64,000 nt of DNA from Methanocaldococcus sp. 28A (GCA_049852185.1 CP187540.1), one strand, 5' to 3'; shown: positions 40,114-57,975, counted from the stretch's first letter. Program-made: numbers and translations. Notes: generated by a model from the sequence alone, not told the origin.

Positions 40114-40773
40114 ATGACCGGATGCGGTTCTTGTGGCAAGATTATCAAAAATATTGAAAAGAAATATTACAACAAATTAAAAGAAAAAGGCATTGTGTTG
40201 GTTGGTGGGGCTGTAAATTTAGATGATGAAGAAGAAGTTAAAAAAATAAAGGAAATTAGAAAAAATGCAAAGATATTAATTGCTGTTGGTAGCTGTGCTG
40301 TAAGTGGAGGTTTCCAAAGAATGCTTATTGGCTTAGAGAATGGATTCCCACAAAGATTTGTTAGAGTTGGAGATGTTGTTAAGGTAGATTATGCAATAAT
40401 TGGCTGCCCACCAGATGAAAAAGAGGTTGAAAAAGTAGTGAGAGCAGTTATTGAAAAAGATACTGCAATAGTTGATTCATATTTAATACTAAAACCTTAC
40501 GAAATTATTGCTGGAAAACCAATTATTGATGCTTACATGAAAGTTAATGAGGTTTTATTAACTTCAAATAAAGAGTTATGTTTAGGATGTGATGATAAAC
40601 CAATAAATGATGAGTTCTGCACAGGTTGTGGGACATGCGTTGCTAAATGTCCAGCAAACGCTTTAACAATTGATGAAAAGCCAAAAGTCAATATAAGTAA
40701 GTGTATTAAGTGCGGTACTTGTTTCTTTAACTGTATAAGAGTAAAAGAGGCACTACTAAGCGAAGCGAGGTAG
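40114..40773 (+). CDS. FrhG-like small subunit with ferredoxin domain
   Basis: TGCGSC, AVGSCAVSGG, GCPP, CTGCGTC...CP, CIKCGTC. Confidence 0.85.
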   Translation: MTGCGSCGKIIKNIEKKYYNKLKEKGIVLVGGAVNLDDEEEVKKIKEIRKNAKILIAVGSCAVSGGFQRMLIGLENGFPQRFVRVGDVVKVDYAIIGCPPDEKEVEKVVRAVIEKDTAIVDSYLILKPYEIIAGKPIIDAYMKVNEVLLTSNKELCLGCDDKPINDEFCTGCGTCVAKCPANALTIDEKPKVNISKCIKCGTCFFNCIRVKEALLSEAR

Positions 40774-40811
40774 TGCATCCTAAGTCTCCCAATAGGGCAA
40801 AGCCCTATGGG
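40745..40811 (+). repeat. Double-hairpin element supplying the frhG-like stop codon
   Basis: AAGAGGCACTAC-TAAGCGAAGCGAG-GTAGTGCATCC...CCCAATAGGGC-AAA-GCCCTATGGG. Confidence 0.85.
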
Positions 40812-40859
40812 TGTTGGAACTTGCTTCTTCAACTGTATAAGAGTTAGAGGTGATGATAA

Positions 40860-41645
40860 ATGAAATATCTCTCAGTAAAATCAAAATTAAATATTGAAGC
40901 ACAAGATGGGGGATTCACAACAACCTTTTTAGGTTATTGTTTAGAGAGTGGAATATTAGATGCAGTAGTAGTAGTTAAAGATAAAAATTGGAAACCAATT
41001 GCCTATTTAGCTACAAACACAGTTGAATTATTAAAATCACCAAAAAGTAAATACTCTATCTCACCAAACAACAAGTTGTTAGAATATGCAACTGAAAATT
41101 ATGATAAAGTTGGATTGGTTGGTTTGCCTTGCCATATATTAGGAGGATTGCAGTTTGATTTAGCTTTAAAAGTTGGTTTATTCTGTACAAAAAATTTCCA
41201 CTATGAAACAATAAAAAACATTATAAAAGAGAGATTTGGACTTGATATGGATGAAGTTGTTAAAATGAATATCACAAAAGGAAAATTTGTTGTTGAAACC
41301 TTAAAAAGTACTGATTTAGTCCATTCAGAAAAAGTAATTTATGAAATTCCAATAAAAGAGATTGAAAAGTTCTGCAACTTAGGATGTAGATTATGCACAG
41401 ATTTCTCAGCAAAATACGCAGATGTATCAGTTGGAAGTGTTAGTAGTGAAAATGGATGGAATACTATAATTATAAGAAACAAGAAAGTTGAAGATATAAT
41501 AAATGAAATGGTTGAGAAGGGATTAATTGAAGTTAAAGAGGCTGTTGATATTAAAGCAGTTGAAAAATTAGAAAACATTAAAAAGAAAAATGAAGAAATT
41601 AACAAATGTTCTGCATACTTTGCTGTATGCCCTGCTCTATTTTAA
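40860..41645 (+). CDS. FrhB-like F420-interacting subunit
   Basis: AQDGG, KSKY, VGLPC, GLFC..NF, C..C.DF.A..AD.SVGSV. Confidence 0.88.
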   Translation: MKYLSVKSKLNIEAQDGGFTTTFLGYCLESGILDAVVVVKDKNWKPIAYLATNTVELLKSPKSKYSISPNNKLLEYATENYDKVGLVGLPCHILGGLQFDLALKVGLFCTKNFHYETIKNIIKERFGLDMDEVVKMNITKGKFVVETLKSTDLVHSEKVIYEIPIKEIEKFCNLGCRLCTDFSAKYADVSVGSVSSENGWNTIIIRNKKVEDIINEMVEKGLIEVKEAVDIKAVEKLENIKKKNEEINKCSAYFAVCPALF

Positions 41646-41736
41646 AATGGCCCCTTATTTTTATTTATCCAACCGTAAGAGATATAAATTTAATAAAATT
41701 TTTTACTTTTTTATAATTTTATTTGGAGATGAAAGT

Positions 41737-42357
41737 ATGCTAATTAAAAAAATTGAAGCACTAAAAAATTCACAGATTAAAGATATTATTGATAAAAGAA
41801 TCCAAGAATTTAAATCTTTTAAAAATAAATCCAATGAAGAATGGTTTAAAGAACTATGCTTTTGCATATTAACAGCTAATTTTACAGCTGAGGGTGGAAT
41901 AAAAATACAGAAAGAAATAGGGGATGGATTTTTAACACTTCCAAGAGAAGAGTTAGAAGAAAAATTAAAAAATTTGGGGCATAGATTTTATAGAAAAAGA
42001 GCAGAATATATTGTTTTAGCTCGAAGATTTAAAAATATCAAAGATATCGTTGAGAGTTTTGAAAATGAAAAGATAGCGAGAGAGTTTTTAGTGAGAAATA
42101 TAAAAGGGATTGGATACAAGGAAGCAAGCCACTTTTTGAGAAATGTTGGCTATGACGATATTGCCATAATTGACAGACATATACTAAGAGAGCTTTATGA
42201 AAACAACTACATTGATGAGATTCCAAAAACATTGAGTAGGAAAAAATATTTAAAAATTGAAAATATATTGAGAGCTATTGGAGAGGAGGTAGATTTAAAA
42301 CTCTCTGAATTAGATTTGTATATATGGTATTTAAGGACTGGAAAAGTTTTAAAGTGA
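41737..42357 (+). CDS. ogg: 8-oxoguanine DNA glycosylase/AP lyase (Ogg2)
   Basis: ELCFCILTAN, GHRF, KGIGYKEASHFLRNVG, AIIDRH, TGKVLK. Confidence 0.95.
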   Translation: MLIKKIEALKNSQIKDIIDKRIQEFKSFKNKSNEEWFKELCFCILTANFTAEGGIKIQKEIGDGFLTLPREELEEKLKNLGHRFYRKRAEYIVLARRFKNIKDIVESFENEKIAREFLVRNIKGIGYKEASHFLRNVGYDDIAIIDRHILRELYENNYIDEIPKTLSRKKYLKIENILRAIGEEVDLKLSELDLYIWYLRTGKVLK

Positions 42358-42400
42358 GATTATGGTAAATGTTGAAAGAATTAGCATATCATTCTCTAAA

Positions 42401-42467
42401 CCATAGGGCCTCGCCCTATTGGTATACTCGGGATGCGTTGATTAGCTTTAGCTAATCAACGCCTCTT
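42401..42467 (-). repeat. Double-hairpin element (same family as 40745-40811)
   Basis: Reverse strand AAGAGGCGTTGATTAGC-TAAA-GCTAATCAACGCATCC...ACCAATAGGGC-GAG-GCCCTATGG. Confidence 0.85.
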
Positions 42468-42488
42468 AAGTAGAGATAGGTGAAATAA

Positions 42489-42899
42489 ATGGTAAACGTT
42501 GAAAGAATTAGCATATCATTTTCAAAATTTCTTTTAAAAGAGATAGATGATGTTGTTAAAAAGAAGGGATATTCAAGTAGAAGTGAATTAATAAGAGACG
42601 CTGTGAGAAAACATATCCTAGAAAGTAACTCATTATTAGATAAAGAAGGAAACATTAGTGGGATAATTATTGTTGTCTATACACCAACAAAAGAGTCTAT
42701 GGAAAAAATGAGTAAGTTGTATTTTGAATATAACGATATAGTTAAATCATTAAATCAATCCTACATAACAACTTCATGTGGTAAAAATAAGAAGGTAGAG
42801 ATTTTTGTTGTTGAAGGGAATGCAAAGAGAATATCTGAATTTTACGATGGAATTTCAAAGATTGATGGAAAGATTTATGATAAAGTTATTGTATTCTAA
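42489..42899 (+). CDS. NikR-like ribbon-helix-helix regulator
   Basis: RISIS...LL..ID......GYSSRSELIRDAVR; ACT-like C-terminus without the His-rich Ni motif. Confidence 0.85.
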   Translation: MVNVERISISFSKFLLKEIDDVVKKKGYSSRSELIRDAVRKHILESNSLLDKEGNISGIIIVVYTPTKESMEKMSKLYFEYNDIVKSLNQSYITTSCGKNKKVEIFVVEGNAKRISEFYDGISKIDGKIYDKVIVF

Positions 42900-43062
42900 C
42901 GTAAGATAAATTAATAATAATTTGTAATAATTTGTCATTCAATTCTTTATTACCTTTTTATTGTTATTTCATAATAATTATAACAAATTTACATCAGTAA
43001 AGATATAATAATTATATCCATTTTGAGTTATATTTTGGCAAAAAAAGGTTTCTGGTTTCTCG

Positions 43063-43076
43063 GGAAATAGGTTTTC
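43063..43076 (+). promoter_or_regulatory. NrpR-like operator (one mismatch)
   Basis: GGAA-ATAGGT-TTTC vs GGAA-N6-TTCC, just upstream of the narK remnant. Confidence 0.45.
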
Positions 43077-43087
43077 TATTATTATAA

Positions 43088-43360
43088 ATGGGATAATAAT
43101 TATAAAAAGAAAGTCAGTATTATTGAAGCCCTTAAAAGTGGAGATATAAAAACATTGATTGCATCGTTATTATATTTTGATACAGGATTCCTGGTTTGGT
43201 TATTATTTGAACCTGCTTTAGGTTTATTTATTGCACAGGACCTGGGTTTATCACCTGCTGAGAAAGGATTTATGATTGCAGTTCCAATCCTCGCTGCGAC
43301 ACTATTTAGGATTCTTTTTGGTTACATTTACCAGGCAATAAATGGAAAATACATTGCAAT
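43088..43360 (+). pseudogene. NarK/NRT2-like nitrate/nitrite MFS transporter, 5' fragment
   Basis: ALKSGDIKTLIASLLYFDTGFLVW...LGLFIAQDLGLSPAEKGFMIAVPILAATLFRILFG; +1 frameshift after ATG 43088; truncated at a hairpin element. Confidence 0.75.
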
Positions 43361-43361
43361 G

Positions 43362-43450
43362 AGGGCCCTCTATTGCTATACTCCTTAACACCTCTACTAA
43401 AGGAAGAGGAGTAAATTTTGGTTATACCAATAAGGGCGGAGCCCTATGGT
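43362..43450 (+). repeat. Back-to-back double-hairpin element remnants
   Basis: GCCCTCTATTGCTATACTC (reverse remnant), TAACACCTC...GAGGAGTAA hairpin, ATACCAATAAGGGC-GGA-GCCCTATGG. Confidence 0.7.
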
Positions 43451-43507
43451 TCGAGACACCCCCGTATGCTTGCATTTTTTATTAATTAAAATAAAATTCT
43501 GTTCTTA

Positions 43508-44164
43508 TTATAAAACTCTTCCTCTAACTTTATTTATGTCAAATTTTGCTGTTTCTGCAATAGCCATAACTGCCAAAACTCCTGCTTGTAATGGGTCTCC
43601 AACAACTAAATCAGCTACTTTTGGAACAGAGCCAAACATCTTTAAGCTTATTACTGGAATACCTGTCTTTTCTTTCAACTCTTTAACTGCTTCAGTTATC
43701 TTTCCCCCCATTAGAGAGCCAGCTAAAACTAAAATCCCTACTCTTGGTAAGGTTGCTACAGCTCTAACAGCCTCATATAAATTTTCTTCACCTACAATAG
43801 GAAGAGTGTCAACGCTAATCCTTTCCCCTCTTATATTATGTCTATCTGCTTCACTTATAGCTCCTCTTGCAACTTCAGCAACTTGAGCTCCTCCACCAAT
43901 AATAATAACTCTCTTACCATAAATCTTTTTTAATGAGCTGTGAATCTCAAAGCTTTTTACATATTCACAGCTTTCTATTCTTTTTTTTAATTCATTAATA
44001 TCTTTAATTCCTTCAACTTCCATATAAATAAATCCAATTTTGCCATCATCTTTAATAAATTGTTGAGTATAAGTTATATTTCCACCCAATTCAGATAAAA
44101 TGCCAGTAAGTTTATGTAAAACTCCAACTTTATTCTCAGCCTCTATGCTTATTCCTATCTCCAT
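43508..44164 (-). CDS. ACT-domain protein (DUF5612-like)
   Basis: NKVGVL..LT ACT motif; GGGAQVAEVARGAISEADRHN. Confidence 0.8.
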   Translation of the reverse strand: MEIGISIEAENKVGVLHKLTGILSELGGNITYTQQFIKDDGKIGFIYMEVEGIKDINELKKRIESCEYVKSFEIHSSLKKIYGKRVIIIGGGAQVAEVARGAISEADRHNIRGERISVDTLPIVGEENLYEAVRAVATLPRVGILVLAGSLMGGKITEAVKELKEKTGIPVISLKMFGSVPKVADLVVGDPLQAGVLAVMAIAETAKFDINKVRGRVL

Positions 44165-44173
44165 ACTCTCACA

Positions 44174-45457
44174 TTAAATTTTTCTAATTCTTCTTCTAAC
44201 AGCTTCAGCATGCCCCAACAATCCTTCAGCTTCAGCTAATGTGATAACAATATCAGCAATATTTTTTAAACTCTCCTTATCTAATTTTTGGAATGTTATT
44301 TTCTTTAAAAATGTCTCTACATTTAAACCAGAACTCATTCTTGCAAATTGTGAAGTTGGCAAAACATGGTTTGTTCCAGAAGCATAATCTCCAACAGGAA
44401 CTGGGCTATACTCACCTAAAAACACACTTCCAGCATGTTTAATTTTATTTAAAACTTCTTCTTGGTTTTTGGTTAATATTTCCAAATGCTCTGGGGCATA
44501 TTTATTTGAGAACTCAATACACTCTTCTAAATCACCAATCAATATGGCAGAGTTTTCCAAAGCTTTTAATATAATTTCTTTTCTTTCAGCTTTTTCTATC
44601 TCTTCAAATATTTTATTTTTAATTTCTTCTGCCTTCTTTTCAGATGTTGTGGTTATTATGCAAGAGGCATTAGGGTCGTGCTCAGCTTGGGCTATAAAAT
44701 CTAAAGCAACAAACTCTGCATTAGCTGTTTCATCAGCTATAATTAAAACTTCTGAAGGACCTGCTAAAAAATCTATTGCCACATCTCCATAAACCATTTT
44801 TTTGGCTGTTGTTACATATATATTTCCAGGACCTACAATAATATCAACTTTTGGAATAGTTTCTGTTCCATATGCTAAAGCTCCTATAGCTTGAACTCCT
44901 CCAACTTTAAAAATGGCATCAACTCCTACGATGTCTCCAGCTATCAATGTAGCTGGATTTCCCTTCCCTTCTTTTGTTGGTGGGGAAGTTATATATATTT
45001 CTTCACATCCAGCAACCTTTGCAGGGATTGTAGTCATTAAAACAGTTGAAGGATAAAATGCCCTTCCTCCAGGAACATAGCATCCAACTTTTTCTATTGC
45101 TCTAACGACCTGTCCTAAAATTATTCCGTTATTTTTAACCTCTAAGTCTTTAATTTGCTCCATTTGCTTTTTGTGGAAGAAGTAAATATTTTCCTTAGCT
45201 TTTTCTATTGCTTCAATAATTTTGTAATCTACTAAATTATATGCCTCTTTTATCTCCTCTTCACTAACTTTAAAATCTTCTATTTCAACACCATCAAACT
45301 TTTTTGTGTAATATTTTAAAGCTTCATCTCCCTTCTTTTTAACATCCTTCAAAATCTCCATTACTGTTGGTAAAATTTCTTCAAAGTTTGTTTTATTTCT
45401 ATTAATTATTTTTTCCTCCTCTTCCTTAGATAAATCCCTAATCTTTTTAATTATCAT
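44174..45457 (-). CDS. hisD: Histidinol dehydrogenase
   Basis: YVPGG, GPGN.YV, AGPSE, QAEHD, APEHLE, GDYASGTNHVLPT. Confidence 0.97.
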   Translation of the reverse strand: MIIKKIRDLSKEEEEKIINRNKTNFEEILPTVMEILKDVKKKGDEALKYYTKKFDGVEIEDFKVSEEEIKEAYNLVDYKIIEAIEKAKENIYFFHKKQMEQIKDLEVKNNGIILGQVVRAIEKVGCYVPGGRAFYPSTVLMTTIPAKVAGCEEIYITSPPTKEGKGNPATLIAGDIVGVDAIFKVGGVQAIGALAYGTETIPKVDIIVGPGNIYVTTAKKMVYGDVAIDFLAGPSEVLIIADETANAEFVALDFIAQAEHDPNASCIITTTSEKKAEEIKNKIFEEIEKAERKEIILKALENSAILIGDLEECIEFSNKYAPEHLEILTKNQEEVLNKIKHAGSVFLGEYSPVPVGDYASGTNHVLPTSQFARMSSGLNVETFLKKITFQKLDKESLKNIADIVITLAEAEGLLGHAEAVRRRIRKI

Positions 45458-45490
45458 AATTTATCACCAAATTTTGATTAACAAACTTTA

Positions 45491-45658
45491 AATAGGACTT
45501 TTACACTTTATATAATAATAAGGAAAATATAATGCCAAGAGCATCAATACTGTTCGAATGCAAGAGAACTGATTGAGGTTATAGGCTTCAAAGTTATAGA
45601 TATTTAAATTGCATTCAGACCGTTATACCTTTCAATATTTATTAGAGAAAGTTCTAAT
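45491..45658. repeat. Degenerate AGGACTTT-family palindrome interrupted by a ~72-bp TIR-bounded mini-element (45550-45621)
   Basis: AATAGGACTTT...AAAGTTCTAATT outer arms; inner CTGTTCGAATGCAA / TTGCATTCAGACC imperfect TIRs. Confidence 0.55.
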
Positions 45659-45715
45659 TTAATATATATTTAGTGCTTATAATATTTACTATTAAGAAAA
45701 ATTTAAGGTGAGAAG

Positions 45716-46630
45716 ATGATACTCTTTGAGTGGGGGACTTATAACGCTTTATCAACATTAAAACAGGCAGCATTATTAGGAACAAGAATTACAGAAATTC
45801 CACCAGCAGTGTTATCAAGAAGATTACCAACTGGATACTATGAGAGTTATAAAAAGTTAAGTAAGGAATATTTTACATCAATCTTAGCTCATGGCCCATA
45901 TTACAGCTTAACATCAGAGAAAGGGTTAAATGCTCATCTTTCAGCCATAGAAAAAGCTACACTATGTGGGGCTGAGATTTATAATTATCATCTTGGTAAA
46001 AGAGTGGGGGATGATTTGAACTACCACTTAGAAGTCTTAAAAAAATTCAGTGAAGTTAATAGTGAGATGATTTACTCTCCAGAGCCAGCGACAAATATTG
46101 GCGAGTTTGGAACATTGGATGAAGTTGAAGAGTTAGTAAAAGCAGCTAAAGAGGAAGATATAAAAGTCATTCCATCTTTGCAGTTAGAAAACATCTTCTT
46201 AAATGAATTAGGAGTTTATGAAAAGGATGATTTAGATGAAGCAGCAGAAAAGGCTGATGTTGATTGGGGGCTAAAAATCTTTAAAAGAATGGATAAAATA
46301 TCAGATTATATAATGCATTTCAGATTTTCACAGGTTATAGGGCTAAAATATGGAAAGAGATTTTATAAGAAAAGAGTTCCTTTAGGAAAAGGTTATCCTC
46401 CAATTGAACCATTAACTGAAGCTTTATCTATATACTTAGTTGAGAACGCTACAAGAGGGGGCTTTAAGAAAGTTCTATTTGTCTATACTGGATTGCCAGA
46501 GGTTAAGTATAGAGATTTAATTGATTTATATGCAATGATTATGAAGAAATCTGTAGATAAGTTAATGAGCAAAGAGAGCCAGGTTGAATATGGAGAGTTC
46601 TATAAGGTTATGAGTTCAGAGGAAGAATAA
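45716..46630 (+). CDS. Conserved hypothetical, AP-endonuclease-2/TIM-barrel-like
   Basis: AHGPYY.L, YHLG, PE....GEFGTLDE, MHFRFS. Confidence 0.6.
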   Translation: MILFEWGTYNALSTLKQAALLGTRITEIPPAVLSRRLPTGYYESYKKLSKEYFTSILAHGPYYSLTSEKGLNAHLSAIEKATLCGAEIYNYHLGKRVGDDLNYHLEVLKKFSEVNSEMIYSPEPATNIGEFGTLDEVEELVKAAKEEDIKVIPSLQLENIFLNELGVYEKDDLDEAAEKADVDWGLKIFKRMDKISDYIMHFRFSQVIGLKYGKRFYKKRVPLGKGYPPIEPLTEALSIYLVENATRGGFKKVLFVYTGLPEVKYRDLIDLYAMIMKKSVDKLMSKESQVEYGEFYKVMSSEEE

Positions 46631-46722
46631 ATTATAATCTATTTTTTATTTTTTTATTTTTAATTTTTATTTTTACACTTTATATTGGTGTTCTCATTTT
46701 TAAATAAAAAAAGGTAGAGAAT

Positions 46723-47391
46723 ATGATATGTTTGCCAGTAATTGAAAATAATGTGGAAGACGCAATAAAAACAGCTGAGAAGTATTTAGAAATAGTAGAT
46801 ATTGTTGAATTTAGGATAGATATGCTTAAAGAAGTTAGTGAAAATGATATAGAAAAATTTACCCAATATCCTTGCATAATAACAGTTAGAGCGGATTGGG
46901 AAGGGGGTTATTGGAAAAAATCTAATGAAGAAAGATTAAATCTAATAAAAAAGGCAATTGAATGTAATGCTAAATTTGTAGATATTGAGTTAAAAGAAGA
47001 GAAGAATAAAGAACTTGTAAAATTTAGAGATGAGATTGGTTCAAAAACACAAATTATAATTTCATATCATGATTTTGAAAAAACACCTTCAAAAGATAAA
47101 TTAATTGAGATAATTGAAAAAGCTCTTAGCATTGGAGATATAGCAAAATTTGCAGCTATGGCAAATAGTAAAGAAGATATTATCAATATTTTGGATGTGA
47201 TAAACAAATATTCAGGAAAAATTATTGGCATTGGAATGGGAGAAAAAGGAAAACTAACAAGAATCTTAGGGGTTTATTTTGGTTCAATATTAACCTTTGC
47301 CTCTTATAAAGGTAAAAGCTCAGCTCCTGGGCAGATTGATATTTACACTCTAAAAGAGATTTGGAAACTTATGGATTTAAAAGCATATTAA
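46723..47391 (+). CDS. aroD: Type I 3-dehydroquinate dehydratase
   Basis: EFRID, R...EGG, SYHDF, AK, MG..G...R, APGQ. Confidence 0.95.
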
Positions 47392-50510: not shown

Positions 50511-51632
50511 TTATAGAAAAATTTTTTCTATGAAGCTATAGACTCTAAACGATATTAGCATCCCAGATATTAATAGAGAAAGTAATGAGATGATTTTTAT
50601 TTTTCCTGAAGATTCTTTGAACACAGCCAAATAAAGCAAAAAATAAGCTATTAGTGTAAAGAACATGCTTATATCCACCAATGTTTTTGCATCAAAAATT
50701 AATAGAATTATAACTAATAGAGTATTTAAGATAACTCCATAATGTGGAATTTCTTTTCTCAATTTTGTAAATATTTGAGGAAATATTTTATCCCTTCCCA
50801 TCCCATAAGGCATATAAGATAATGTAAATAAAACGCTAAACGCACAGCTTGATATAATAATCAATACTCCAACAAACAAAAATAAGTTATCCCCGATTAA
50901 TATCCTTAATATCTCATTCAAGTTGTTTGTTTTTACATTTAAAGATATTACAGTTAAAGAAAATAATAAATAAAGAATTCCAATAATAAAAGTTCCTATT
51001 AATAGCCCATAAGCTATAGCTTTTTGATTTTTAAATGCAGATAATGGCATTGTTATGCCTTCCCAGCCAGTAGCTGCCCATAATCCAAAATAAATTGTTA
51101 GAATAGTATTTTTTAAATTAAACTCTCCAATGCTACCAATTTTTATGCCGTTTGAAAATACTATATACAAAATAATCGTTATCGTTAAAATCCCAAAGAT
51201 TCTGACAAAGTTTCCTACAATTTTTAAACCACACAATATTAAAGCTGTTAAAACAATAATTAAGAGCAATCCAACATAAGGAACATTAAATACTGTATTA
51301 AAAATTATCTCAAAGAATGACACAACTCCAGATAGGGCAAAAACTCCAGAGAGCCACAATATATAAGCTGAAAAAACTCCAATCACTCTCCCTAAAATTT
51401 TCATTACAAACTTATAAACTCCTCCACTTTCACTAATCTTTGTTGAAGCATAAGCAAAAGGAGAAGCCATAATTAAAGATACAAATATTAGTAGAATCCA
51501 ACCCCATACTATAGATTTCCCAAACATCATATATGTCAAAGGAGATAAAACAAAAATCCCTCCACCAACAATAGAAGTTATTGTTAAAAATACAGCATCT
51601 TTAAGAGTTAAATGTCCCATAACTAACACCAA
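50511..51632 (-). CDS. APC-family amino acid permease
   Basis: IVGGGIF, ESGGVY, W...GWE; multiple TM helices. Confidence 0.85.
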   Translation of the reverse strand: MVLVMGHLTLKDAVFLTITSIVGGGIFVLSPLTYMMFGKSIVWGWILLIFVSLIMASPFAYASTKISESGGVYKFVMKILGRVIGVFSAYILWLSGVFALSGVVSFFEIIFNTVFNVPYVGLLLIIVLTALILCGLKIVGNFVRIFGILTITIILYIVFSNGIKIGSIGEFNLKNTILTIYFGLWAATGWEGITMPLSAFKNQKAIAYGLLIGTFIIGILYLLFSLTVISLNVKTNNLNEILRILIGDNLFLFVGVLIIISSCAFSVLFTLSYMPYGMGRDKIFPQIFTKLRKEIPHYGVILNTLLVIILLIFDAKTLVDISMFFTLIAYFLLYLAVFKESSGKIKIISLLSLLISGMLISFRVYSFIEKIFL

Positions 51633-51728
51633 TTATTGTTAATAAATATTTAATGTATAGCTTAAAGCAAAAATATTTAATACATTCTTTTATAATTATC
51701 TTTATTCAAAAGTTGATTGAGGGATAAG

Positions 51729-53591
51729 ATGAAGATGCTATTAATCCACTCTGATTATTTAGAGTTTGAGGCAAAACAAAAAACTAAAATTGCAGAAGAA
51801 ACTGAGAATTTAAAAGGTAAATTAGATGAGTGTTTAGCTTGCTTTATTGCAGTGGAGAGAGAGGATGAAAATAACCCAAAAGGAACTGCTATAGGGGCAG
51901 TAGAAGAGATTGAGAAAGTTGCTAATCAGTTAAAAGTTAATAATATTGTTGTTTATCCTTATGCCCATTTATCAAGTGATTTATCTTCACCTGAAACAGC
52001 TATAAAGGTTTTGAAAGAGATTGAGAATATTTTGAAAGAAAGGGGCTATAATGTGTTAAGGGCTCCATTTGGATGGTATAAAGCATTTAAAATTAGTTGT
52101 AAAGGCCATCCATTAAGTGAGTTATCAAGAAAGATTGTAGCTAAGGAAGAGAAGAAAGAGAAAGGAGAAGAATCTAAGTTTTATTTATTAAATCCAGAAA
52201 CAGAAGAAGCTGTTGAGCTAAGTGAAGAAAATATTAATATAATAAAAGATGAAGAGCTTTTGGCATTAGCTAAACATGAATTGGGAATTAAAGAAAATAA
52301 AGAAAGAGAAGAACCACCACATGTAAAGTTTATCAAAGAAAAAGATATTTGCAGTTATGAAGAGGCATCAGACCCTGGGCACTTTAGATGGTATCCAAAA
52401 GGTAAGTTGATTAGAGATTTATTAGCAGATTATGTCTATAACATGGTAGTTAGATTAGGAGCTATGCCAGTAGAAACACCAATTATGTATGATTTAGGAA
52501 ATCCTGCTATTAGAGAGCATGCTGATAAATTTGGTGAGAGGCAGTATAGGTTTAGACAAGGAAATAGGGAGTTAATGTTAAGATTTGCGGCATGTTTTGG
52601 GCAGTTTATGATGAAAAAAGACATGTATTTGTTGCCAAGATATTTGCCTTTAAAACTTTATGAGCTATCAACATACAGCTTTAGATATGAGCAAAGAGGG
52701 GAGTTAGTAGGTTTAAAGAGGTTGAGAGCATTTACAATGCCAGATATGCATACTGTCTGCTTAGACATAAAACAAGCAATGGAAGAGTTTGAAAAACAAT
52801 TTTGGGAGTGTTTAAAGACAGGAGAGGATTTGAATTTAAGTTATTCAGTAATCTTTAGATTCACAAAAGATTTCTTTGATGAGCATAGAGATTGGTTCTT
52901 TAAGATAGCTAAGGAATACAAAAATAAATACGGAAAAGATGTTATCTTAGAAATTCTTCCTAAAAGAAAACACTATTGGGTTGGTAAGGTAGATATTGCT
53001 GTAATAGATAGCTTAGGAAGACCTATTGAAAATCCAACTGTTCAAATAGATGTTGAAAGTGCTAAAAGGTTTGACATAAAAGTGCATACAAATGAAGGAG
53101 AAGTATATCCAATAATATTGCATTGCTCTCCTACTGGCTCAATTGAGAGAGTCTTATGTGGTTTGTTAGAAAAAGCAGCTATAGAAGCTAAAGAAGGAAA
53201 AGCTCCAATGCTTCCTGTTTGGCTCTCCCCTATACAAGTTAGAGTTATTCCAGTAGCTGATAGACATTATGACTATGCTTTAAAAGTTGCTGAAAAGCTG
53301 AGAGAAAATAATATTAGAGCAGATTTTGATGATAGAGAAGATAGGGTAAGCAAAAAGATTAGAAATGCAGGAAGTGAATGGATACCTTATGTTGTTGTTA
53401 TTGGAGATGAAGAAATGGAGTCTGGAAAATTAACAGTAACAATTAGAGAAAAATCAACTTTAAAAAAGCCTTATAAAGAGAAGATGACATTAGATGAGTT
53501 GATTGAGAGAATCAAAAAAGAAACTGCTGGATATCCATATAGACCTTTACCATTACCAATAAGATGTTCATTACAGCCAAAGTTCCATTAA
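51729..53591 (+). CDS. thrS: Threonyl-tRNA synthetase (archaeal)
   Basis: YPYAHLS editing domain, RFAACFG, FRYEQ.GE, MPDMH, HCSPTGSIER. Confidence 0.97.
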   Translation: MKMLLIHSDYLEFEAKQKTKIAEETENLKGKLDECLACFIAVEREDENNPKGTAIGAVEEIEKVANQLKVNNIVVYPYAHLSSDLSSPETAIKVLKEIENILKERGYNVLRAPFGWYKAFKISCKGHPLSELSRKIVAKEEKKEKGEESKFYLLNPETEEAVELSEENINIIKDEELLALAKHELGIKENKEREEPPHVKFIKEKDICSYEEASDPGHFRWYPKGKLIRDLLADYVYNMVVRLGAMPVETPIMYDLGNPAIREHADKFGERQYRFRQGNRELMLRFAACFGQFMMKKDMYLLPRYLPLKLYELSTYSFRYEQRGELVGLKRLRAFTMPDMHTVCLDIKQAMEEFEKQFWECLKTGEDLNLSYSVIFRFTKDFFDEHRDWFFKIAKEYKNKYGKDVILEILPKRKHYWVGKVDIAVIDSLGRPIENPTVQIDVESAKRFDIKVHTNEGEVYPIILHCSPTGSIERVLCGLLEKAAIEAKEGKAPMLPVWLSPIQVRVIPVADRHYDYALKVAEKLRENNIRADFDDREDRVSKKIRNAGSEWIPYVVVIGDEEMESGKLTVTIREKSTLKKPYKEKMTLDELIERIKKETAGYPYRPLPLPIRCSLQPKFH

Positions 53592-53704
53592 AAATTTCAT
53601 AACAACAATAATATCTTTTTCATGCATGTATGAAAAAATATATAAATAGCAATCCATATTTTTAAATAATTATCTACTGCTATTTTTTATATAATCTCAT
53701 TATT

Positions 53705-53779
53705 ATAGGACTTTCGCAGTGTGTATATTAACTATGGAAATTAGGTGCCTTAAAACATTAATTCCTGCAAAAGTCCTAT
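53705..53779. repeat. AGGACTTT-family palindromic element
   Basis: ATAGGACTTTCGCAG...CTGCAAAAGTCCTAT. Confidence 0.85.
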
Positions 53780-53822
53780 ATTATATAAACTAATAAATTT
53801 AAAGTCATTAAGCTTTTTTATT

Positions 53823-53908
53823 ATAGGACTTTCACAGGAATGAATATAACAATGAACTTTGATGCCCTTTGGGCATCTAAGAGAATATATAAACTGTGAA
53901 AGTCCTAT
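53823..53908. repeat. AGGACTTT-family palindromic element with central GATGCCC/GGGCATC hairpin
   Basis: ATAGGACTTTCACAG...CTGTGAAAGTCCTAT. Confidence 0.85.
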
Positions 53909-53930
53909 TACAATCATTTTGGGGGAGAAT

Positions 53931-56213
53931 ATGATAGTAAAATGTCCAATTTGTGATGGTACTGGAAAAAAGGTAGTCAAATATAAAACATGCCCTGTAT
54001 GTGAAGGAACTGGATTTATAGATGAATTTTCACCAAAGCAACATATGAAAAGAGTTTCTAAGAGAGCAAACTATGACTTAGATTATGGAGAAATAGAATG
54101 TCCAAAGTGTAAAGGAACAGGAAAAGTTCCAATTTATGCAAAATGTGATTTTTGTGGTGGTAGTGGAAAAGTAGTTAAATGTGATAGATGTGGAGCTGTG
54201 ATTGGTAGATATCCTGACTTTAAAGATAGAACATTGTGTGATAAATGTTTAAAAGAAGAGGAAGAGAGGAAGAAAGGATTAAGAAATGTATATGTGTTTG
54301 ATGAATTAGCTACATTTTACGATGTTGAGCCTGGTAAATTCTATAAAGGAGTTGTTACAAGAATTGAAAAATATGGGGCTTTTATTAACTTAAATGAGCA
54401 AGTTAGAGGGCTTTTAAGACCAAGAGATAGGATAAGCTTAAGATTAGAGAATTTAAATGTTGGAGATGAAATAATAGTTCAGGCAATAGATGTAAGACCT
54501 GAAAAAAGAGAGATAGACTTTAAATACATTCCATTAACAACCTATGATTTAGTTAAATATGAAAAAGAAGTTCCTCTCTCTAATATAAAGGATATCTCTC
54601 AAAACTTAGTCGAGATGAGAGACCAGGTTGTGCATATAAGAGGAGAGGTAGTTCAAATAGTTCAAACTCCTGGACCAACAGTATTTACAATAACCGATGG
54701 AACTGACTTTGCTTGGGTAGCTGCTTTAGAAATAGCTGGTTTGAGAGCTCATCCCGATGTTAAAGTTGGAGATATAGTTGATGTTATTGGAAGAGTTACA
54801 ATAAGAGATGGAAGATTACAGATTGAGAGGATAAAACTCAATAAGTTAGTAGGTGAAGAGGCAGAAGAAATTAAGAAAAAGATAGAGGAAGAAATTGATA
54901 GAAGGGCAGAGCCTGCTAAGAATATACCATTCTTAGTTAAGAGTGAAGTTTTAGAGAGATTGAGACCAAAAATGGTGGATGTTGCTAAGAGAATTAGGAA
55001 GGCAGTTTTGGATGGAAGACCAATAATTATTAGACATCACGCAGATACTGATGGTTACTGTGGAGGAATTGCGTTAGAAAAGGCCATATTACCAATAATT
55101 GATAAATTTGCCATAGATGTTGATGCAATATGGCATTTCTTTAAGAGAAGACCTTCAAAGGCTCCATTCTATGAGTTGGAAGATGTAACAAAGGATTTGG
55201 TATTCTCTATAGAAGATGCCCTAAAGTTTGGGCAGAAATTGCCTTTAATTGTATTAATTGATAATGGAAGTACTGATGAAGATATTCCAGCTATATCCAA
55301 AGCTAAAGCCTATGGTATAGAGGTTATAGTTATAGACCACCACTTCCCTGGAGAGGTCGTTGATGGTAGAGTAGAAGTTGACGACTACGTAGATGCCCAT
55401 GTTAATCCTTATTTAGTTGGTGGAGATAGCAACTTAACTGCTGGTGTATTAGGAACTGAAATAGCGAGAATGATAAATCCAGAAGTAGAAGACGAGATAA
55501 AACACCTTCCAGGAATAGCGGTTGTTGGAGACCATGCTAAGGGAGAGGAGGCAGAGCAGTATATAAAAATAGCCCTTGATAGATTAAATGAATTTAGTAA
55601 AAAATATGGTAAGGGAAGAACCTATGATAGAGAGTATTTAGAGAAAATAGCTCTATGTATGGATTTTGAGGCATTTTACTTAAGATTCATGGATGGTAAG
55701 GGGATTGTTGATGATATATTGGCAACAAATATAAAAGAGTTTGGAAGACATGAGAAGTTAATAGATATATTGTATGAGCAGGCAATGAAGATGGTTGAAA
55801 GACAGATGAAAGCTGTAATTCCCGCTCTAAAAACAGAGTTCTTAGAGAATGGAATTATATTAAATACTTTAGATGTTGAAAAATTTGCTCACAAATTTAC
55901 ATTCCCAGCTCCAGGAAAAACCACTGGATTTGCTCATGACTATATTGTCCAAAAATATGGTGAGGATAAGCCAATTATAACTCTTTCCTATGGTCCAGAC
56001 TTTGGAGTTGTTAGAGCAACAGATGCAGTTCATGAAAAGTATAACTTCAATTTAAACTTAATAGTTGAGCAGTTAATGGAAGAAATTCCTGAAGCATCAA
56101 TAGATGGAGGAGGACATGAGTGTGCTGGTAGCTTAAAATTTGTTGAAGGTTTGAGAGATAAGGTAATAAATAGATTTATAGAAATTATTAAAAGTTTAAA
56201 GCCAAAAGAGTAA
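53931..56213 (+). CDS. RecJ-like DHH nuclease with DnaJ-type Zn finger, S1 and OB domains
   Basis: CxxCxGxG repeats, S1 (KYGAFINL), HHADTDG, DNGS, IDHH, GGGHECAG. Confidence 0.9.
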   Translation: MIVKCPICDGTGKKVVKYKTCPVCEGTGFIDEFSPKQHMKRVSKRANYDLDYGEIECPKCKGTGKVPIYAKCDFCGGSGKVVKCDRCGAVIGRYPDFKDRTLCDKCLKEEEERKKGLRNVYVFDELATFYDVEPGKFYKGVVTRIEKYGAFINLNEQVRGLLRPRDRISLRLENLNVGDEIIVQAIDVRPEKREIDFKYIPLTTYDLVKYEKEVPLSNIKDISQNLVEMRDQVVHIRGEVVQIVQTPGPTVFTITDGTDFAWVAALEIAGLRAHPDVKVGDIVDVIGRVTIRDGRLQIERIKLNKLVGEEAEEIKKKIEEEIDRRAEPAKNIPFLVKSEVLERLRPKMVDVAKRIRKAVLDGRPIIIRHHADTDGYCGGIALEKAILPIIDKFAIDVDAIWHFFKRRPSKAPFYELEDVTKDLVFSIEDALKFGQKLPLIVLIDNGSTDEDIPAISKAKAYGIEVIVIDHHFPGEVVDGRVEVDDYVDAHVNPYLVGGDSNLTAGVLGTEIARMINPEVEDEIKHLPGIAVVGDHAKGEEAEQYIKIALDRLNEFSKKYGKGRTYDREYLEKIALCMDFEAFYLRFMDGKGIVDDILATNIKEFGRHEKLIDILYEQAMKMVERQMKAVIPALKTEFLENGIILNTLDVEKFAHKFTFPAPGKTTGFAHDYIVQKYGEDKPIITLSYGPDFGVVRATDAVHEKYNFNLNLIVEQLMEEIPEASIDGGGHECAGSLKFVEGLRDKVINRFIEIIKSLKPKE

Positions 56214-56235
56214 TTAAAAAATAAAAATAACTCTT

Positions 56236-56667
56236 TTAGATTTTTTTGCTCATTTCATATAAGAAGATAGATAAATTACCTAAAGCTCCAATCTCATTTT
56301 CAACAATGTATCTTCCTAATCCTTTTTCTAACTCTAATTTTGTAAATCCTGTTGAAGCTCCACAGAAAACAACTAAATCATTTTCTCCAATTTCATTAAA
56401 ATCTAATTTTTCCTCACAAATATTTTTGTTGCCTATTAAAAACACTTTCTCAGGTCTTAAAACTTCTATAGCATCATCCAACTCTTCAAAGAATAAAACA
56501 TTTTTTCCTAATTTGTATGCCATTTTATGCAATGTAGGAATTCCACTTTGAGCAGCTGATGCTGTTGCTTTTGTAACAACTATTGTATTGACATCAAATC
56601 CATATGCAATTCTTCCAAACTCTTCTACCTGCTTAGAACTGTATGTGTTATGCAAGCAAATAAACAT
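56236..56667 (-). CDS. Conserved archaeal protein, SPOUT-like
   Basis: LHNTYS, AAQSGIP, VFCG...GF...E. Confidence 0.55.
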   Translation of the reverse strand: MFICLHNTYSSKQVEEFGRIAYGFDVNTIVVTKATASAAQSGIPTLHKMAYKLGKNVLFFEELDDAIEVLRPEKVFLIGNKNICEEKLDFNEIGENDLVVFCGASTGFTKLELEKGLGRYIVENEIGALGNLSIFLYEMSKKI

Positions 56668-56813
56668 AACCTCTCACCTTTTTAGTTTTTTAGTCTTTTA
56701 TTATTACAAGACAGATTATTTATTCTAAATTACTTTCTAAACTACTTTATTTTAAGTTTTCTTTAACTACCTTAGCTATAGCTTTACTCAAAGCTACAGG
56801 AACACTCTCCTCC

Positions 56814-56876
56814 GAACCTTTTAGTAAAAGCTTCACTAAAATATAACACCTCCTCGCTTACGCTCGGAGGTGTAAC
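56814..56876 (-). repeat. Double-hairpin element downstream of dcm
   Basis: Reverse strand ACACCTCC-GAGCGTAAGCGA-GGAGGTGT then TGAAGCTTTT-ACT-AAAAGGTTC. Confidence 0.8.
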
Positions 56877-56877
56877 T

Positions 56878-57975
56878 TTATAAATTATTTTTAATTTCTC
56901 GTGCTATAGCTCTACTCAAAGCTACAGGAACACTTTCTCCTATCTGATTATAACAGCTTCTTATTCCCCCAGCAAATAGGTGATAATCAGGATAACTCAT
57001 CAACCTTGCCTGTTCTCTTGGTGTTAATAATCTATCTTCATAAGGATGGATAAAGAATCTCTTACCCATAACTGTCTCAGCTAATTTTAGAGGATGTAAT
57101 CTTATGTAATTTCCTAACCTTCTATTAGCCCCTTTGAAATAGATAAATGCATCCCCCCAACCTAATCTATGAACTCTCTTCCTAAATCTTGCAGGTAGAG
57201 CGGCAAATTCATGATTTGGAATATCTCTACCTTTATACATTAAATCTCCTATAGCCTCAATAACAGTTTTTGGCTGAGTTTTTTCTGGATTAATTTCTAT
57301 GTTTGAGACAAAGACTCTCCTTCTAACAGATGGATTTCCATAATCCTCTGCTTTTAATGTGTTGAAATAGACATTTTCATAACCAATTTCTCTAAACTCT
57401 TTTATTATTTCTCCTCTAACCTCTTTAATTCCAGGAACATTTTCCATAACAAATATTTTTGGCTGTAAGTCCCCAACAATCCTTATATACTCTAAAACTA
57501 ATCTTCCAGTTTCATCTTTATATAATCTATCATAAGGATTTTTCTCTCTTTTTGGATTAGCTCCTGTATATCCTTCACAAGGCGGACCTCCAATAATAAC
57601 ATCTACTTTTTTATTTTTGATGAACTTTTTTATCTCAAGTGAATGAATTTCTCTAATATCATCATTAATAACAACTGGATTTAGTTTTTCAGTTTTTTTA
57701 TTTAAAGTTCCCAATTTTTTTAACCACTTTATATCTTCCTCCTCAAAAGGAAATTTAAATGAGTATATCCCAACATAACCCTTTAATTCTTTCAATTTGA
57801 ATTCTCCAGGTCTTACTTTTTCATATATTCTACCATTAAAATTTAATGCATAAGAAAAAGCAGCATCTTCCTCTATTTCAATAGCCACTAATGGCTCAAA
57901 ACCCACATCTACAAACCCTCTTGAAAATCCCCCACATCCACAAAATAAATCAATAAATTTCAACATTATCACCAA
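56878..57975 (-). CDS. DNA (cytosine-5) methyltransferase, no adjacent endonuclease
   Basis: DLFCGCGG, GGPPC, MENV, RRRVF, TPREQARL, QIGESVP. Confidence 0.93.
   Translation of the reverse strand: MVIMLKFIDLFCGCGGFSRGFVDVGFEPLVAIEIEEDAAFSYALNFNGRIYEKVRPGEFKLKELKGYVGIYSFKFPFEEEDIKWLKKLGTLNKKTEKLNPVVINDDIREIHSLEIKKFIKNKKVDVIIGGPPCEGYTGANPKREKNPYDRLYKDETGRLVLEYIRIVGDLQPKIFVMENVPGIKEVRGEIIKEFREIGYENVYFNTLKAEDYGNPSVRRRVFVSNIEINPEKTQPKTVIEAIGDLMYKGRDIPNHEFAALPARFRKRVHRLGWGDAFIYFKGANRRLGNYIRLHPLKLAETVMGKRFFIHPYEDRLLTPREQARLMSYPDYHLFAGGIRSCYNQIGESVPVALSRAIAREIKNNL

What the first reader, a model, noticed from the sequence alone, without database searches (positions are those of the whole stretch)
40714..56937. 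Candidate system: short double-hairpin elements joined to orphaned, synonymously diverged copies of gene termini (element-anchored allele replacement)
Seen at three clear sites (frhG-like, nikR-like, dcm) and one weak site (14723). The layout in element orientation is always: working gene terminus, then a ~60-70 nt double-hairpin element, then a second copy of the same 30-63 nt of coding sequence within 0-5 nt of the element's terminal hairpin. At the first two sites all 7 aligned differences are synonymous third-position changes. At dcm the orphan is an intact alternative C-terminus. A neutrally decaying target-site duplication should mutate at all codon positions, so both copies look as if they were once functional. 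Inference: donor DNA from a related strain enters by homologous recombination on one side and by hairpin-end strand transfer on the other, replacing a gene end without killing the gene. This would resemble one-ended HUH-type (TnpA-Y1/RAYT) transposition. Palindromic repeats are known in M. jannaschii, but I know of no description of this junction pattern. No candidate enzyme lies in this window.
Basis: partly seen in the sequence, partly recalled or inferred. Interest (0 to 1): 0.8.

Follow-up and report, generated by a model that had tools for sequence, protein, structure and literature searches.

The report
Hairpin elements flanked by duplicated gene ends
A family of small double-hairpin DNA elements in these heat-loving methanogens sits right after gene ends between two long copies of the gene's last 20-60 bases, and the two copies differ mostly by silent changes, which points to the insertions being passed between related species by recombination.

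Summary
All three clear window sites (frhG-like end, nikR start, dcm end) are real; the weak site at 14723 is not. In the whole genome 7 of 12 full-length copies of the ~67-nt element have flanking direct duplications of 21-48 nt, above the 99th percentile of 2000 random positions. So do 25 of 38 copies found in 16 relatives by element similarity alone.

In 27 coding pairs (19 loci), 52 differing codons are synonymous and 24 are not; 58 of 81 changed bases are third positions. The working copy faces the TAAGAG/stem-1 end at 18 of 19 loci. At 14 listed pairs (about 12 loci) the stop codon ends 12 nt before to 3 nt inside the element.

Orphans do match functional alleles of element-free relatives, and junction scars shared between species point to single origins followed by lateral spread. 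But perfect duplicates that share lineage-specific bases show the target itself is duplicated. A Y1/HUH transposase occurs in only 3 of 17 genomes, in an ordinary IS context.

Best model: an MJRE-like element inserts with a long target duplication, then homologous recombination between lineages and paralogs reshuffles the copies. The inserting enzyme is unknown. Earlier notes of this scan described the same layout in other Methanocaldococcus genomes.

The parts
40114..40773 (+). frhG-like gene (Oxidored_q6 + 4Fe-4S). Its last ~9 codons and its TAG stop are read from the element.
   Evidence: ORF list; Pfam; sequence; empty allele in G001.
40714..40742 (+). Working copy (L) of the duplicated frhG end, on the stem-1 side of the element.
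   Evidence: It carries GGT/TGT/TTT where the orphan and most relatives have GGA/TGC/TTC.
40745..40810 (+). Element copy 1: TAAGAG-type start, stem-1 hairpin with a GAGCGAAGCGAG loop, linker, terminal hairpin CCAATAGGGCAAAGCCCTATGG.
   Evidence: nhmmer 66.9 bits; fold z-score -4.59; motif match.
40816..40844 (+). Orphan copy (R) of the frhG end, 5 nt after the terminal hairpin. Its own tail and the old spacer were deleted, so it now runs into the RBS and ATG of frhB at 40860.
   Evidence: comparison with G001, G007, G005 and G012.
42362..42400 (+). Orphan copy (R) of the nikR start (ATG plus 12 codons), abutting the terminal hairpin. The last ~9 nt (TTCTCTAAA) may belong to the element's GGTTAG-type 3' end.
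   Evidence: The site is empty in G014, G001 and G002.
42401..42468 (-). Element copy 2 (stem 1 = GCGTTGATTAGC/GCTAATCAACGC).
   Evidence: nhmmer 57.9 bits; fold z-score -7.92.
42469..42488 (+). 20-nt filler between the element's TAAGAG end and the working nikR start. It contains a new GGTGA Shine-Dalgarno-like motif and is absent from the empty alleles.
   Evidence: G000 compared with G014 and G001.
42489..42899 (+). Working nikR gene (RHH + NikR_C). Its first 39 nt (42489-42527) are the L copy.
56747..56813 (-). Orphan dcm C-terminus (R), GGESVPVALSKAIAKVVKENLK*. It is the resident allele. Its first ~9 nt (GGAGGAGAG) form a scar shared with other species and with a paralog.
   Evidence: It is 56/58 identical to the working end in the element-free G014 (my own reading of the printed sequences).
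56814..56877 (-). Element module pair E2: CACCTCC-GAGCGTAAGCGAG-GAGGTG hairpin plus TGAAGCTTTTACTAAAAGGTTC hairpin.
   Evidence: Fold z-score -5.99. The same module occurs in arrays in relatives.
56878..57975 (-). Working dcm (C-5 cytosine methylase) gene. Its end (core repeat 56903-56937) is the L copy. Its tail ...AREIKNNL* differs from the resident tail.
43355..43450 (.). Cluster of three related hairpin modules next to a truncated MFS ORF. There is no flanking duplication.
   Evidence: score 8.0.

Best explanation
The elements belong to a modular, non-autonomous hairpin repeat family of this genus, probably the MJRE repeats described for M. jannaschii. I propose two steps.

Step 1 is inferred from anatomy. 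A copy is inserted at a gene boundary, most often 0-12 nt after a stop codon with the TAAGAG end facing the gene. It also lands at gene starts, tRNA 3' ends and CRISPR repeats. Insertion duplicates 20-59 nt of the target (about 40-59 nt at the well-preserved pairs). As a result the upstream gene keeps an intact end and the downstream gene keeps its native upstream sequence.

Step 2 is supported by cross-species comparison. The duplicated segment is long enough to pair homologously. The insertion allele is therefore copied into element-free orthologues of other species and into paralogs, and is partly overwritten by incoming alleles, through ordinary homologous recombination or gene conversion with exchange points inside the duplicate. 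One copy then carries lineage A's functional allele and the other lineage B's. Their differences are the silent differences that separate working alleles, not decay.

The enzyme for step 1 is unknown. A classical fixed-stagger transposase does not fit, and neither does an HUH enzyme or a reverse transcriptase. Replication or repair template switching is my preferred guess for step 1, and it is inference only.
For: Duplication is the rule: 7 of 12 full-length copies in this genome and 32 of 46 in relatives exceed the random 99th percentile.

The target itself is duplicated. Pairs are identical at 43/43, 47/48 and 50/51 positions. Both copies share bases specific to their own genome: G000 against the empty G014 site, AGG in both copies in G005, and AAC/GAC in both copies in G013. 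Empty sites hold exactly one copy.

The differences are allelic. There are 52 synonymous against 24 non-synonymous codons, P = 3e-6 against a 0.42 mixed model; counting one pair per locus gives 40 against 18, P = 3e-5. Runs of consecutive third-position differences lie next to identical stretches, with fewest mismatches in the middle quintile (24/19/11/15/13).

Lateral exchange is visible. In G013 the left half of the orphan equals the G012 allele at all 5 variable sites, while the left half of G013's working copy equals G005's allele. G012 and G013 share a T-to-G scar at the junction, although their gene bodies are only 89% identical.

The dcm site shows the same. The orphan matches the resident allele (56/58 to G014). 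E2 plus 15 nt of orphan differ at about 2 of 80 positions between two dcm paralogs whose gene bodies are 79% identical (both figures are my own reading).

Presence is patchy. The frhG insertion is absent from G001, which is 96% identical in the flank, but present in genomes only 84-89% identical there.

Candidate enzymes do not track the element. Y1_Tnp is in 3 of 17 genomes, RVT_1 in 0 of 17, and the element in 14 of 17.
Against: No insertion event has been caught with an identifiable source copy. The nearest non-orthologous element copy is only 73-97% identical, even for perfect duplications: at genome position 1494779 the flanking duplication is 43/43 while the nearest element is 91% identical. 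So perfect pairs could be old insertions homogenised by gene conversion, or whole alleles imported from unsampled strains, rather than fresh target duplications.

Duplication lengths of 20-59 nt fit no known transposase, so step 1 has no known enzymology.

Exchange points would have to fall within about 45 nt of the element repeatedly, and the rate of this was not modelled.

Recombination rates in this genus were not measured here, and literature search found nothing on them.

Only one genome per species was available. Several loci are orthologous and not independent.

Codon frames in the short loci come from open-ended ORFs.
Confidence: 0.5

Rival explanations
1. Spread is purely homology-driven and no transposase is involved. 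A broken or replicating gene end copies 'tail + hairpins' from an element-bearing homologue (an orthologue taken up from another strain, or a paralog). It then re-anneals at the second copy of the shared segment. Alternatively, a circle made of one duplicate plus the element, released by recombination between the two copies, re-integrates by a single crossover. The donor's end becomes the working end and the resident end is orphaned. First insertions at new loci arise by the same copying, primed at microhomology.
For: At dcm the working tail and E2 look donor-derived, and the orphan is the resident allele except for its first ~9-15 nt. The paralog's two copies differ at 13 of 20 codons, 10 of them silent including stop-to-stop (my reading). 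Junction scars travel with the element. Working-copy tails at unrelated loci resemble each other and the element start (GAAGAATAA against TAAGAGG), which could serve as microhomology. The 5' junction carries variable filler while the 3' junction is fixed. No candidate enzyme co-varies with the element.
Against: Many pairs are identical in the element-proximal half and diverged only in the gene-internal part. That fits a later partial overwrite better than donor-versus-resident full alleles. How a microhomology event returns 40-59 nt upstream so regularly is unexplained. No circles or excision products were observable here.
Confidence: 0.22
2. Donor DNA from a related strain recombines homologously inside the gene. 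On the other side it is joined by a hairpin-end strand transfer carried out by an HUH (TnpA-Y1/RAYT-like) enzyme, giving one-ended transposition that replaces the gene end.
For: The polarity, the silent differences and the orphans matching alleles of element-free relatives are all as predicted. The orphan lies 0-5 nt from the terminal hairpin in most pairs. An intact Y1 transposase exists elsewhere in this genome.
Against: Y1_Tnp is found in only 3 of 17 genomes (one of them broken by stop codons), while 14 of 17 carry the element. The copy in this genome sits beside a second ORF that I take, from its position and without testing it, to be TnpB-like; the unit resembles IS200/IS605. nhmmer at E<=10 finds no element in 3.3 kb around it. 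The orphan's first bases are co-transferred scars, so the joint lies inside homology. Perfect duplicates with shared lineage-specific bases need a duplication step that the model lacks. Known Y1 elements make no target duplication (established knowledge, recalled).
Confidence: 0.08
3. The cause is subfunctionalisation rather than recombination. Before insertion, the duplicated segment was both the coding end of one gene and the promoter, 5' UTR or RBS context of the next. After duplication the orphan stays constrained as a control region and barely changes, while the working copy changes only silently.
For: Orphans lie directly upstream of the next gene's RBS and ATG at frhG/frhB and at genome position 1494779. 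Silent sites of the frhG end are unusually conserved across species, and the working copy, not the orphan, carries the derived bases in G000, G014 and G011.
Against: It cannot explain why the orphan in G013 carries G012-specific bases. It also cannot explain the foreign dcm tail, the orphan nikR start, which has no downstream gene to serve, or the G006 frhG orphan, which decays at all codon positions. A promoter would constrain about 15 nt, not 45.
Confidence: 0.08
4. Insertion is spacer-like and done by the CRISPR adaptation integrase (Cas1-Cas2) or a relative. The hairpin DNA is integrated with staggered attacks on both sides of a target segment, which is then duplicated as a CRISPR repeat is.
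For: In G006 at least 6 arrays carry the element between a degenerate and an intact CRISPR repeat, next to a flank conserved between arrays. Cas1 is present in all 14 element-bearing genomes and missing from 2 of the 3 element-free ones. A duplication of tens of bases is the known signature of spacer integration (recalled).
Against: Duplication lengths vary from 20 to 59 nt instead of matching the ~30-nt repeat. The element is about twice spacer length. One element-free genome has two Cas1 genes. The correlation rests on 3 related genomes, one of them only 85% complete. The repeat copy on the stem-1 side is degenerate at its element-proximal end.
Confidence: 0.05

Closest known systems
MJRE1-3, palindromic repetitive elements of Methanocaldococcus jannaschii (Suyama, Lathe & Bork, FEBS Lett 2005; PMID 16182294)
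   Same: Both occur in the same genus and are short GC-rich palindromic repeats lying in extragenic DNA. Some are fused in frame into genes. [quoted passage not shown] Here the frhG-like gene likewise ends inside the element.
   Different: I could not read the paper itself (not held), so neither sequence identity with MJRE1-3 nor whether it reports flanking duplications could be checked. What I recall of its abstract mentions neither long duplications nor silent divergence of the copies. Searches found no open paper describing them.
REP/BIME repeats and REPtrons (RAYT, a Y1 HUH transposase) of bacteria
   Same: Both are short hairpin modules with compensatory stem changes that occur singly or in mosaic arrays after gene ends. 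Both are orientation-biased and non-autonomous.
   Different: No RAYT-like gene flanked by the hairpins was found: Y1_Tnp is in 3 of 17 genomes, in an IS-like context. REPs are not known to carry 20-59-nt target duplications (recalled).
Classical MITEs
   Same: Both are small, non-coding, multi-copy, flanked by direct repeats of the target, and show filled and empty sites among relatives.
   Different: These elements have no terminal inverted repeats spanning the two ends. Their duplication is 20-59 nt and variable, whereas MITEs have a fixed 2-10 bp. One junction is precise and the other carries filler.
CRISPR spacer integration and off-target 'neo-CRISPR' integration by Cas1-Cas2 (recalled)
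   Same: In both, an insert becomes flanked by a duplication of some tens of bases. Here the duplicated target is sometimes a CRISPR repeat itself.
   Different: The duplication length is variable, the insert is a conserved structured element rather than foreign DNA, and the insert prefers stop codons.
Homing of introns and inteins with co-conversion of flanks; homology-facilitated illegitimate recombination (recalled)
   Same: In both, an insertion spreads into empty homologous alleles of other lineages, carrying short stretches of donor flank with it. The resulting distribution across species is patchy.
   Different: No endonuclease gene is involved here. The insertion does not interrupt the gene but leaves a duplicated, orphaned end.

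Membership tests
MJRE palindromic repeats (Suyama et al. 2005) | Sequence similarity to the published MJRE1-3 consensus sequences | not testable with these tools
Only the genus, size and palindromic nature agree.
MJRE palindromic repeats (Suyama et al. 2005) | Multi-copy palindromic element, mostly extragenic, occasionally fused in frame to genes | tested here: met
   There are 12 full and about 4 partial copies in this genome and copies in 14 of 17 genomes. The frhG-like ORF ends inside the element.
REPtron (REP + RAYT) | A Y1 HUH transposase gene flanked by the repeats and co-occurring with them | tested here: not met
   PF01797 is in 3 of 17 genomes. There are no element hits within 1.5 kb on either side in G000 and G007, and one weak hit (E = 1.3) in G016.
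IS200/IS605-type single-strand transposition | No target duplication; insertion 3' of a short fixed target word | tested here: not met
   Duplications of 20-59 nt flank most copies. Target ends are A-rich and end in TAA, but there is no fixed word.
Classical MITE / DDE transposon derivative | Terminal inverted repeats and a fixed short target duplication | tested here: not met
   The ends TAAGAGGC... and ...GCCCTATGG are not inverted repeats of each other. Duplication lengths range from 18 to 59 nt.
Diversity-generating retroelement (template repeat and variable repeat at a gene's 3' end) | A reverse transcriptase nearby; differences confined to adenines of the template copy | tested here: not met
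   RVT_1 is in 0 of 17 genomes. Differences include C/T, T/A and G/A in both directions.
Retroposon (target-primed reverse transcription) | A reverse transcriptase encoded in the genome | tested here: not met
   RVT_1 is in 0 of 17 genomes, while the control genomes gave matches. Divergent reverse transcriptases outside PF00078 were not searched.
Cas1-Cas2 spacer-like integration | Duplication length set by a ruler close to the repeat length; dependence on Cas1 | tested here: inconclusive
   Lengths of 20-59 nt do not fit a ruler. Cas1 is present in all 14 element-bearing genomes and absent from 2 of 3 element-free ones. Dependence on Cas1 cannot be tested here.

The most novel reading that the evidence does not exclude
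These hairpin elements may be a new kind of mobile DNA with no transposase of its own. In this reading they enter a gene boundary by a copying or template-switch reaction that re-copies about 40-59 nt of the target. They then 'home' between species and paralogs using the long duplication as built-in homology arms. Each transfer swaps a gene's last codons for a foreign allele and leaves the old end as a fossil. If so, the orphans are a dated record of inter-species recombination in hyperthermophilic methanogens.
Probability: 0.25. Interest if true: 0.8.

Novelty: new variant of a known kind. Interest (0 to 1): 0.6.

Why it matters
If the reading is right, three things follow.

First, a known but neglected archaeal repeat family has an insertion signature that no characterised transposase produces. 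That signature is a variable 20-59-nt duplication, one precise junction and one filled junction, and strict orientation next to stop codons. It would point to an undescribed insertion route in archaea.

Second, the orphaned gene ends are natural markers of homologous exchange between Methanocaldococcus species. They show where exchange points fall and that short tracts cross species that are about 89% identical. This makes gene flow in vent methanogens directly measurable from genomes.

Third, there is a practical consequence. Annotators should expect element-encoded C-terminal extensions, new stop codons and pseudo-duplicated gene ends in these genomes.

Tried and rejected

The weak site at 14723 and the cluster at 43355-43450 have flank scores of 8.0, equal to the random median.

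Rfam found nothing for the elements. In 40000-58000 only two sub-threshold chance hits came up, one of them GA-cis at E = 0.57 over the dcm module.

No reverse transcriptase was found, so the retroposition idea was dropped: 0 of 17 genomes.

The diversity-generating retroelement idea was dropped for the same reason, and because the differences are not adenine-specific.

I looked for a source copy behind the 'young' insertions. No copy at another locus is more than 97% identical, and there is no link between duplication divergence and nearest-copy identity. Recent within-genome bursts are therefore not shown.

Sequencing runs gave little. One metagenome run held a small share (0.06) of the stretch and no RNA holder was listed. 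Its contigs are short fragments that stop near the elements, and its single joint is an opposite-strand join between two element copies. Nothing usable came from this on filled or empty alleles or on expression.

The Suyama et al. 2005 paper is not held. Searches for MJRE1/2/3 returned 0 papers, and searches returned nothing relevant (listings only). Supplementary files were not consulted.

Searching at family level added no genomes beyond the genus.

One search failed on an invalid reference format. It was repeated with a window reference.

Full report
WHAT IS THERE

The window is G000:C1:608001-672000 of a 1.56-Mb genome with 30% G+C.

At 40745-40810 (+) and 42401-42468 (-) lie two copies of a ~67-nt element. 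Aligned copies give the consensus TAAGAG-GCAYTRCC-GAGCGAAGCGAG-GGYARTGC-ATCCCGGGTATA-CCAATAGGGCGAAGCCCTATGG.

At 56814-56877 (-) lies a related two-hairpin module, CACCTCC..GGAGGTG plus TGAAGCTTTTACTAAAAGGTTC.

All three fold as double hairpins in single-stranded DNA, with z-scores of -4.6, -7.9 and -6.0.

Across 48 distinct copies, stem 1 keeps pairing through compensatory changes. At pair 10/30 there are 30 T-A and 15 C-G; at pair 12/28 there are 27 G-C and 14 A-T; 96-100% of cells are paired.

Pfam confirms the neighbouring genes: an frhG-like gene, frhB, ogg, nikR and a C-5 cytosine methylase.

The weak site at 14723 scores no better than random flanks.

In the whole genome nhmmer finds 12 full-length and 4 partial copies at E < 1e-4. 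Seven of the 12 full-length copies (8 of 16 in all) have a direct repeat of 21-48 nt between their two flanks, scoring 16.5-45.5. The 99th percentile of 2000 random positions is 15.5.

In 16 other genomes of the genus I fetched 36 loci chosen only by element similarity. Of the 38 element copies in them, 25 have such a duplication. Adding the orthologues of the window sites gives 32 of 46.

The duplicated lengths are 18-59 nt. The best-preserved pairs are 43/43, 47/48, 50/51 and 48/50 identical.

The dcm-type module usually sits inside longer arrays of hairpin modules, and those arrays carry the duplication outside the whole array (for example 46 and 41 nt).

POLARITY AND TARGET

In 19 coding loci the copy contiguous with the gene lies on the TAAGAG/stem-1 side in 18.

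Most of these are gene 3' ends co-oriented with the element. At 14 of the pairs listed (about 12 independent loci) the stop codon ends between 12 nt before the first element base and 3 nt after it. At two loci the element's own TAA is the stop. In the frhG-like gene of this window, translation runs 29 nt into the element.

The remaining loci are antisense gene starts (nikR and four others), tRNA 3' ends (L076, L058, L149) and CRISPR repeats (six or more arrays in G006).

The terminal-hairpin junction is tight, with a gap of 0-5 nt in most pairs. The TAAGAG junction carries variable filler: 3-5 nt at the perfect pairs, 20 nt at nikR and 11-19 nt at frhG in G005 and G016.

THE SILENT-DIFFERENCE PATTERN IS REAL

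I first removed 9 pairs at CRISPR repeats or tRNA ends and one pair with an indel. That left 27 pairs (19 loci).

In these, 52 differing codons are synonymous and 24 are non-synonymous. By position, 13, 10 and 58 changed bases fall on codon positions 1, 2 and 3.

Counting one pair per locus gives 40 against 18 codons, and 9, 7 and 46 bases.

I compared this with a model in which the working copy accepts only silent changes and the orphan decays freely. That model expects about 0.42 of differing codons to be synonymous. The excess has P = 3e-6 over all pairs and P = 3e-5 per locus.

Decay does occur as well. The G006 frhG orphan differs at all codon positions.

WHAT THE RELATIVES SHOW

(a) Empty sites hold exactly one copy of the segment. 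This is seen for nikR in G014, G001 and G002, frhG in G001, dcm in G014 and others, genome site 1494779 in G014 and G006, and genome site 776420 in G010, G006 and G011.

(b) Some pairs are true duplications of the resident target. At 1494779 both G000 copies share two substitutions and an indel relative to the single copy in G014. Both G005 frhG copies share AGG. Both G013 copies share AAC and GAC.

(c) Each locus has a junction scar shared across species, which argues for a single origin per locus:
- an extra base in TGTN-GGAACT at frhG, in three element variants;
- GGNGGAGAG at dcm, in G000, G010, G007 and G013 and in a paralogous dcm gene;
- a T-to-G change at the locus of loci L062/L049, which I take to be a hydrolase gene.

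(d) Presence is nevertheless patchy against relatedness. G001 lacks the frhG insertion although its frhB flank is 96% identical to G000. G011, G010 and G006 carry the insertion at 87-89% flank identity. The nikR insertion is absent from the closest relatives but present, at the same junction, in distant G007. There, 7 of 8 differing codons are silent.

(e) Orphans match functional alleles elsewhere:
- The dcm orphan is 56/58 identical to the working end in G014, while the working tail (AREIKNNL*) is foreign.
- The module plus the first 15 nt of orphan differ at only about 2 of 80 positions from those of the paralogous dcm locus at G000:C1:89994-90287. The gene body there is 79% identical. (These figures are my own counts from the sequences printed.)
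- The G003 orphan is about 90% identical to working ends in G008, G012 and G002.
- In G013 the left half of the orphan equals the G012 allele at 5 of 5 variable sites, and the left half of the working copy equals the G005 allele. The gene bodies of these species are only about 89% identical to each other.

(f) Mismatches within pairs cluster toward the ends of the duplicate, with quintile counts of 24/19/11/15/13. They often form runs of consecutive third positions next to identical stretches, as expected for exchange points inside the duplicate.

MECHANISM

The data need two things: a step that duplicates the resident target, and later exchange between lineages.

I therefore favour insertion with a long, variable target duplication, followed by homologous recombination or gene conversion. 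That second step carries the insertion allele into empty orthologues and paralogs, and overwrites parts of either copy with foreign functional alleles.

What is shown:
- the duplication;
- its polarity;
- the allelic nature of the differences;
- single-origin scars with a patchy distribution;
- mosaic copies.

What is inferred:
- that perfect pairs are fresh target duplications, rather than homogenised or imported ones;
- that the exchange is ordinary homologous recombination;
- that the first step is a template-switch type of reaction.

The main weakness is that no source copy is identifiable for any insertion. The nearest copies at other loci are 73-97% identical.

ENZYMES

PF01797 (Y1_Tnp) is found in G000, G007 and, broken by stop codons, G016 only. 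The element is in 14 of 17 genomes.

The G000 gene (C1:830896-831249) lies next to a 238-aa ORF that I take, from its position and without testing it, to be TnpB-like. No element lies within 1.5 kb on either side.

RVT_1 is absent from all 17 genomes.

Cas1 is in 15 of 17 genomes. The two that lack it (G009, 85% complete, and G015) also lack the element. However, G004 has two Cas1 genes and no element. This is a lead only.

RANGE

Full-length copies occur only in this genus. One genome of another genus in the order has the stem-1 module alone.

COMPARISON WITH WHAT IS KNOWN

The family is most likely the MJRE repeats of M. jannaschii. I saw that paper only as a citation, and in one review passage saying such repeats are fused into protein genes; the paper itself is not held.

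I found no open paper describing the long duplications or the silent divergence of the copies (searches; listings only).

REP/RAYT, classical MITE, IS200/IS605, DGR and retroposon membership each fail a defining feature that I tested here.

Earlier notes of this scan on other genomes describe the same layout. e1-2523113 reports a ~41-nt duplication at a comE end. e1-2522676 reports a hairpin cassette that orphans ATPase gene ends and says it spreads by recombination. e1-1011134 reports a bacterial RAYT next to an orphan ruvA tail from another strain's allele. I saw these only after forming my own reading and treat them as agreement, not as evidence.

VERDICT

I rate it a new variant of a known kind, interest 0.6.

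Noticed in passing
G006 loci L057, L063, L064, L065, L070, L075 (for example L063:350-520): In at least six CRISPR arrays of one relative, the element sits between a degenerate repeat (...CCCCTAAGGGGAAAATAA) and an intact repeat. Beyond the intact repeat lies an AT-rich flank that is conserved between arrays, possibly the leader. The element therefore occupies the position of a spacer. Whether this is the leader end was not settled.
   Followed up: partly
L076, L058, L149/L150 (G001, G005): tRNA gene 3' ends, including CCA, are duplicated around elements just as protein-gene ends are.
   Followed up: no
G000:C1:89994-90287 (L089): A second, paralogous dcm gene (79% identical) carries the same two-hairpin module and its own orphaned C-terminus. 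The two paralog copies differ at 13 of 20 codons. Ten of those differences are silent, including TAA against TGA stops.
   Followed up: partly
G000:C1:830896-831249 (L100): An intact 143-aa Y1 (IS200-type) transposase lies next to a 238-aa ORF that is possibly a truncated TnpB. It is single-copy. The same gene is present in G007 and, broken by TAG stops, in G016.
   Followed up: partly
window 43155-43450: A 77-aa MFS-transporter fragment ends at a cluster of three hairpin modules. This looks like a gene truncated at a repeat cluster.
   Followed up: no
window 42469-42488: The 20-nt filler brought in with the nikR insertion supplies a GGTGA Shine-Dalgarno-like motif 6 nt before the working ATG. 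It replaces the original context, which overlapped the ogg stop.
   Followed up: no
all stem-1 and dcm-type hairpins: The loops are GAGCG(T)AAGCGAG. That is a GCGAAGC core flanked by GA/AG, which I recall as an exceptionally stable DNA mini-hairpin with sheared G-A pairs. This would suit a single-stranded DNA intermediate at high temperature.
   Followed up: no
G039 (another genus of the order), for example C1:1180658-1180693: The stem-1 module alone (94% identical over 36 nt) occurs at five or more places in one genome outside the genus.
   Followed up: no
G001 L090 compared with G000 L084: Two different element subtypes are inserted 10 nt apart at the same intergenic boundary in two species, while the closest relative is empty. 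This suggests the same boundaries are used repeatedly.
   Followed up: partly
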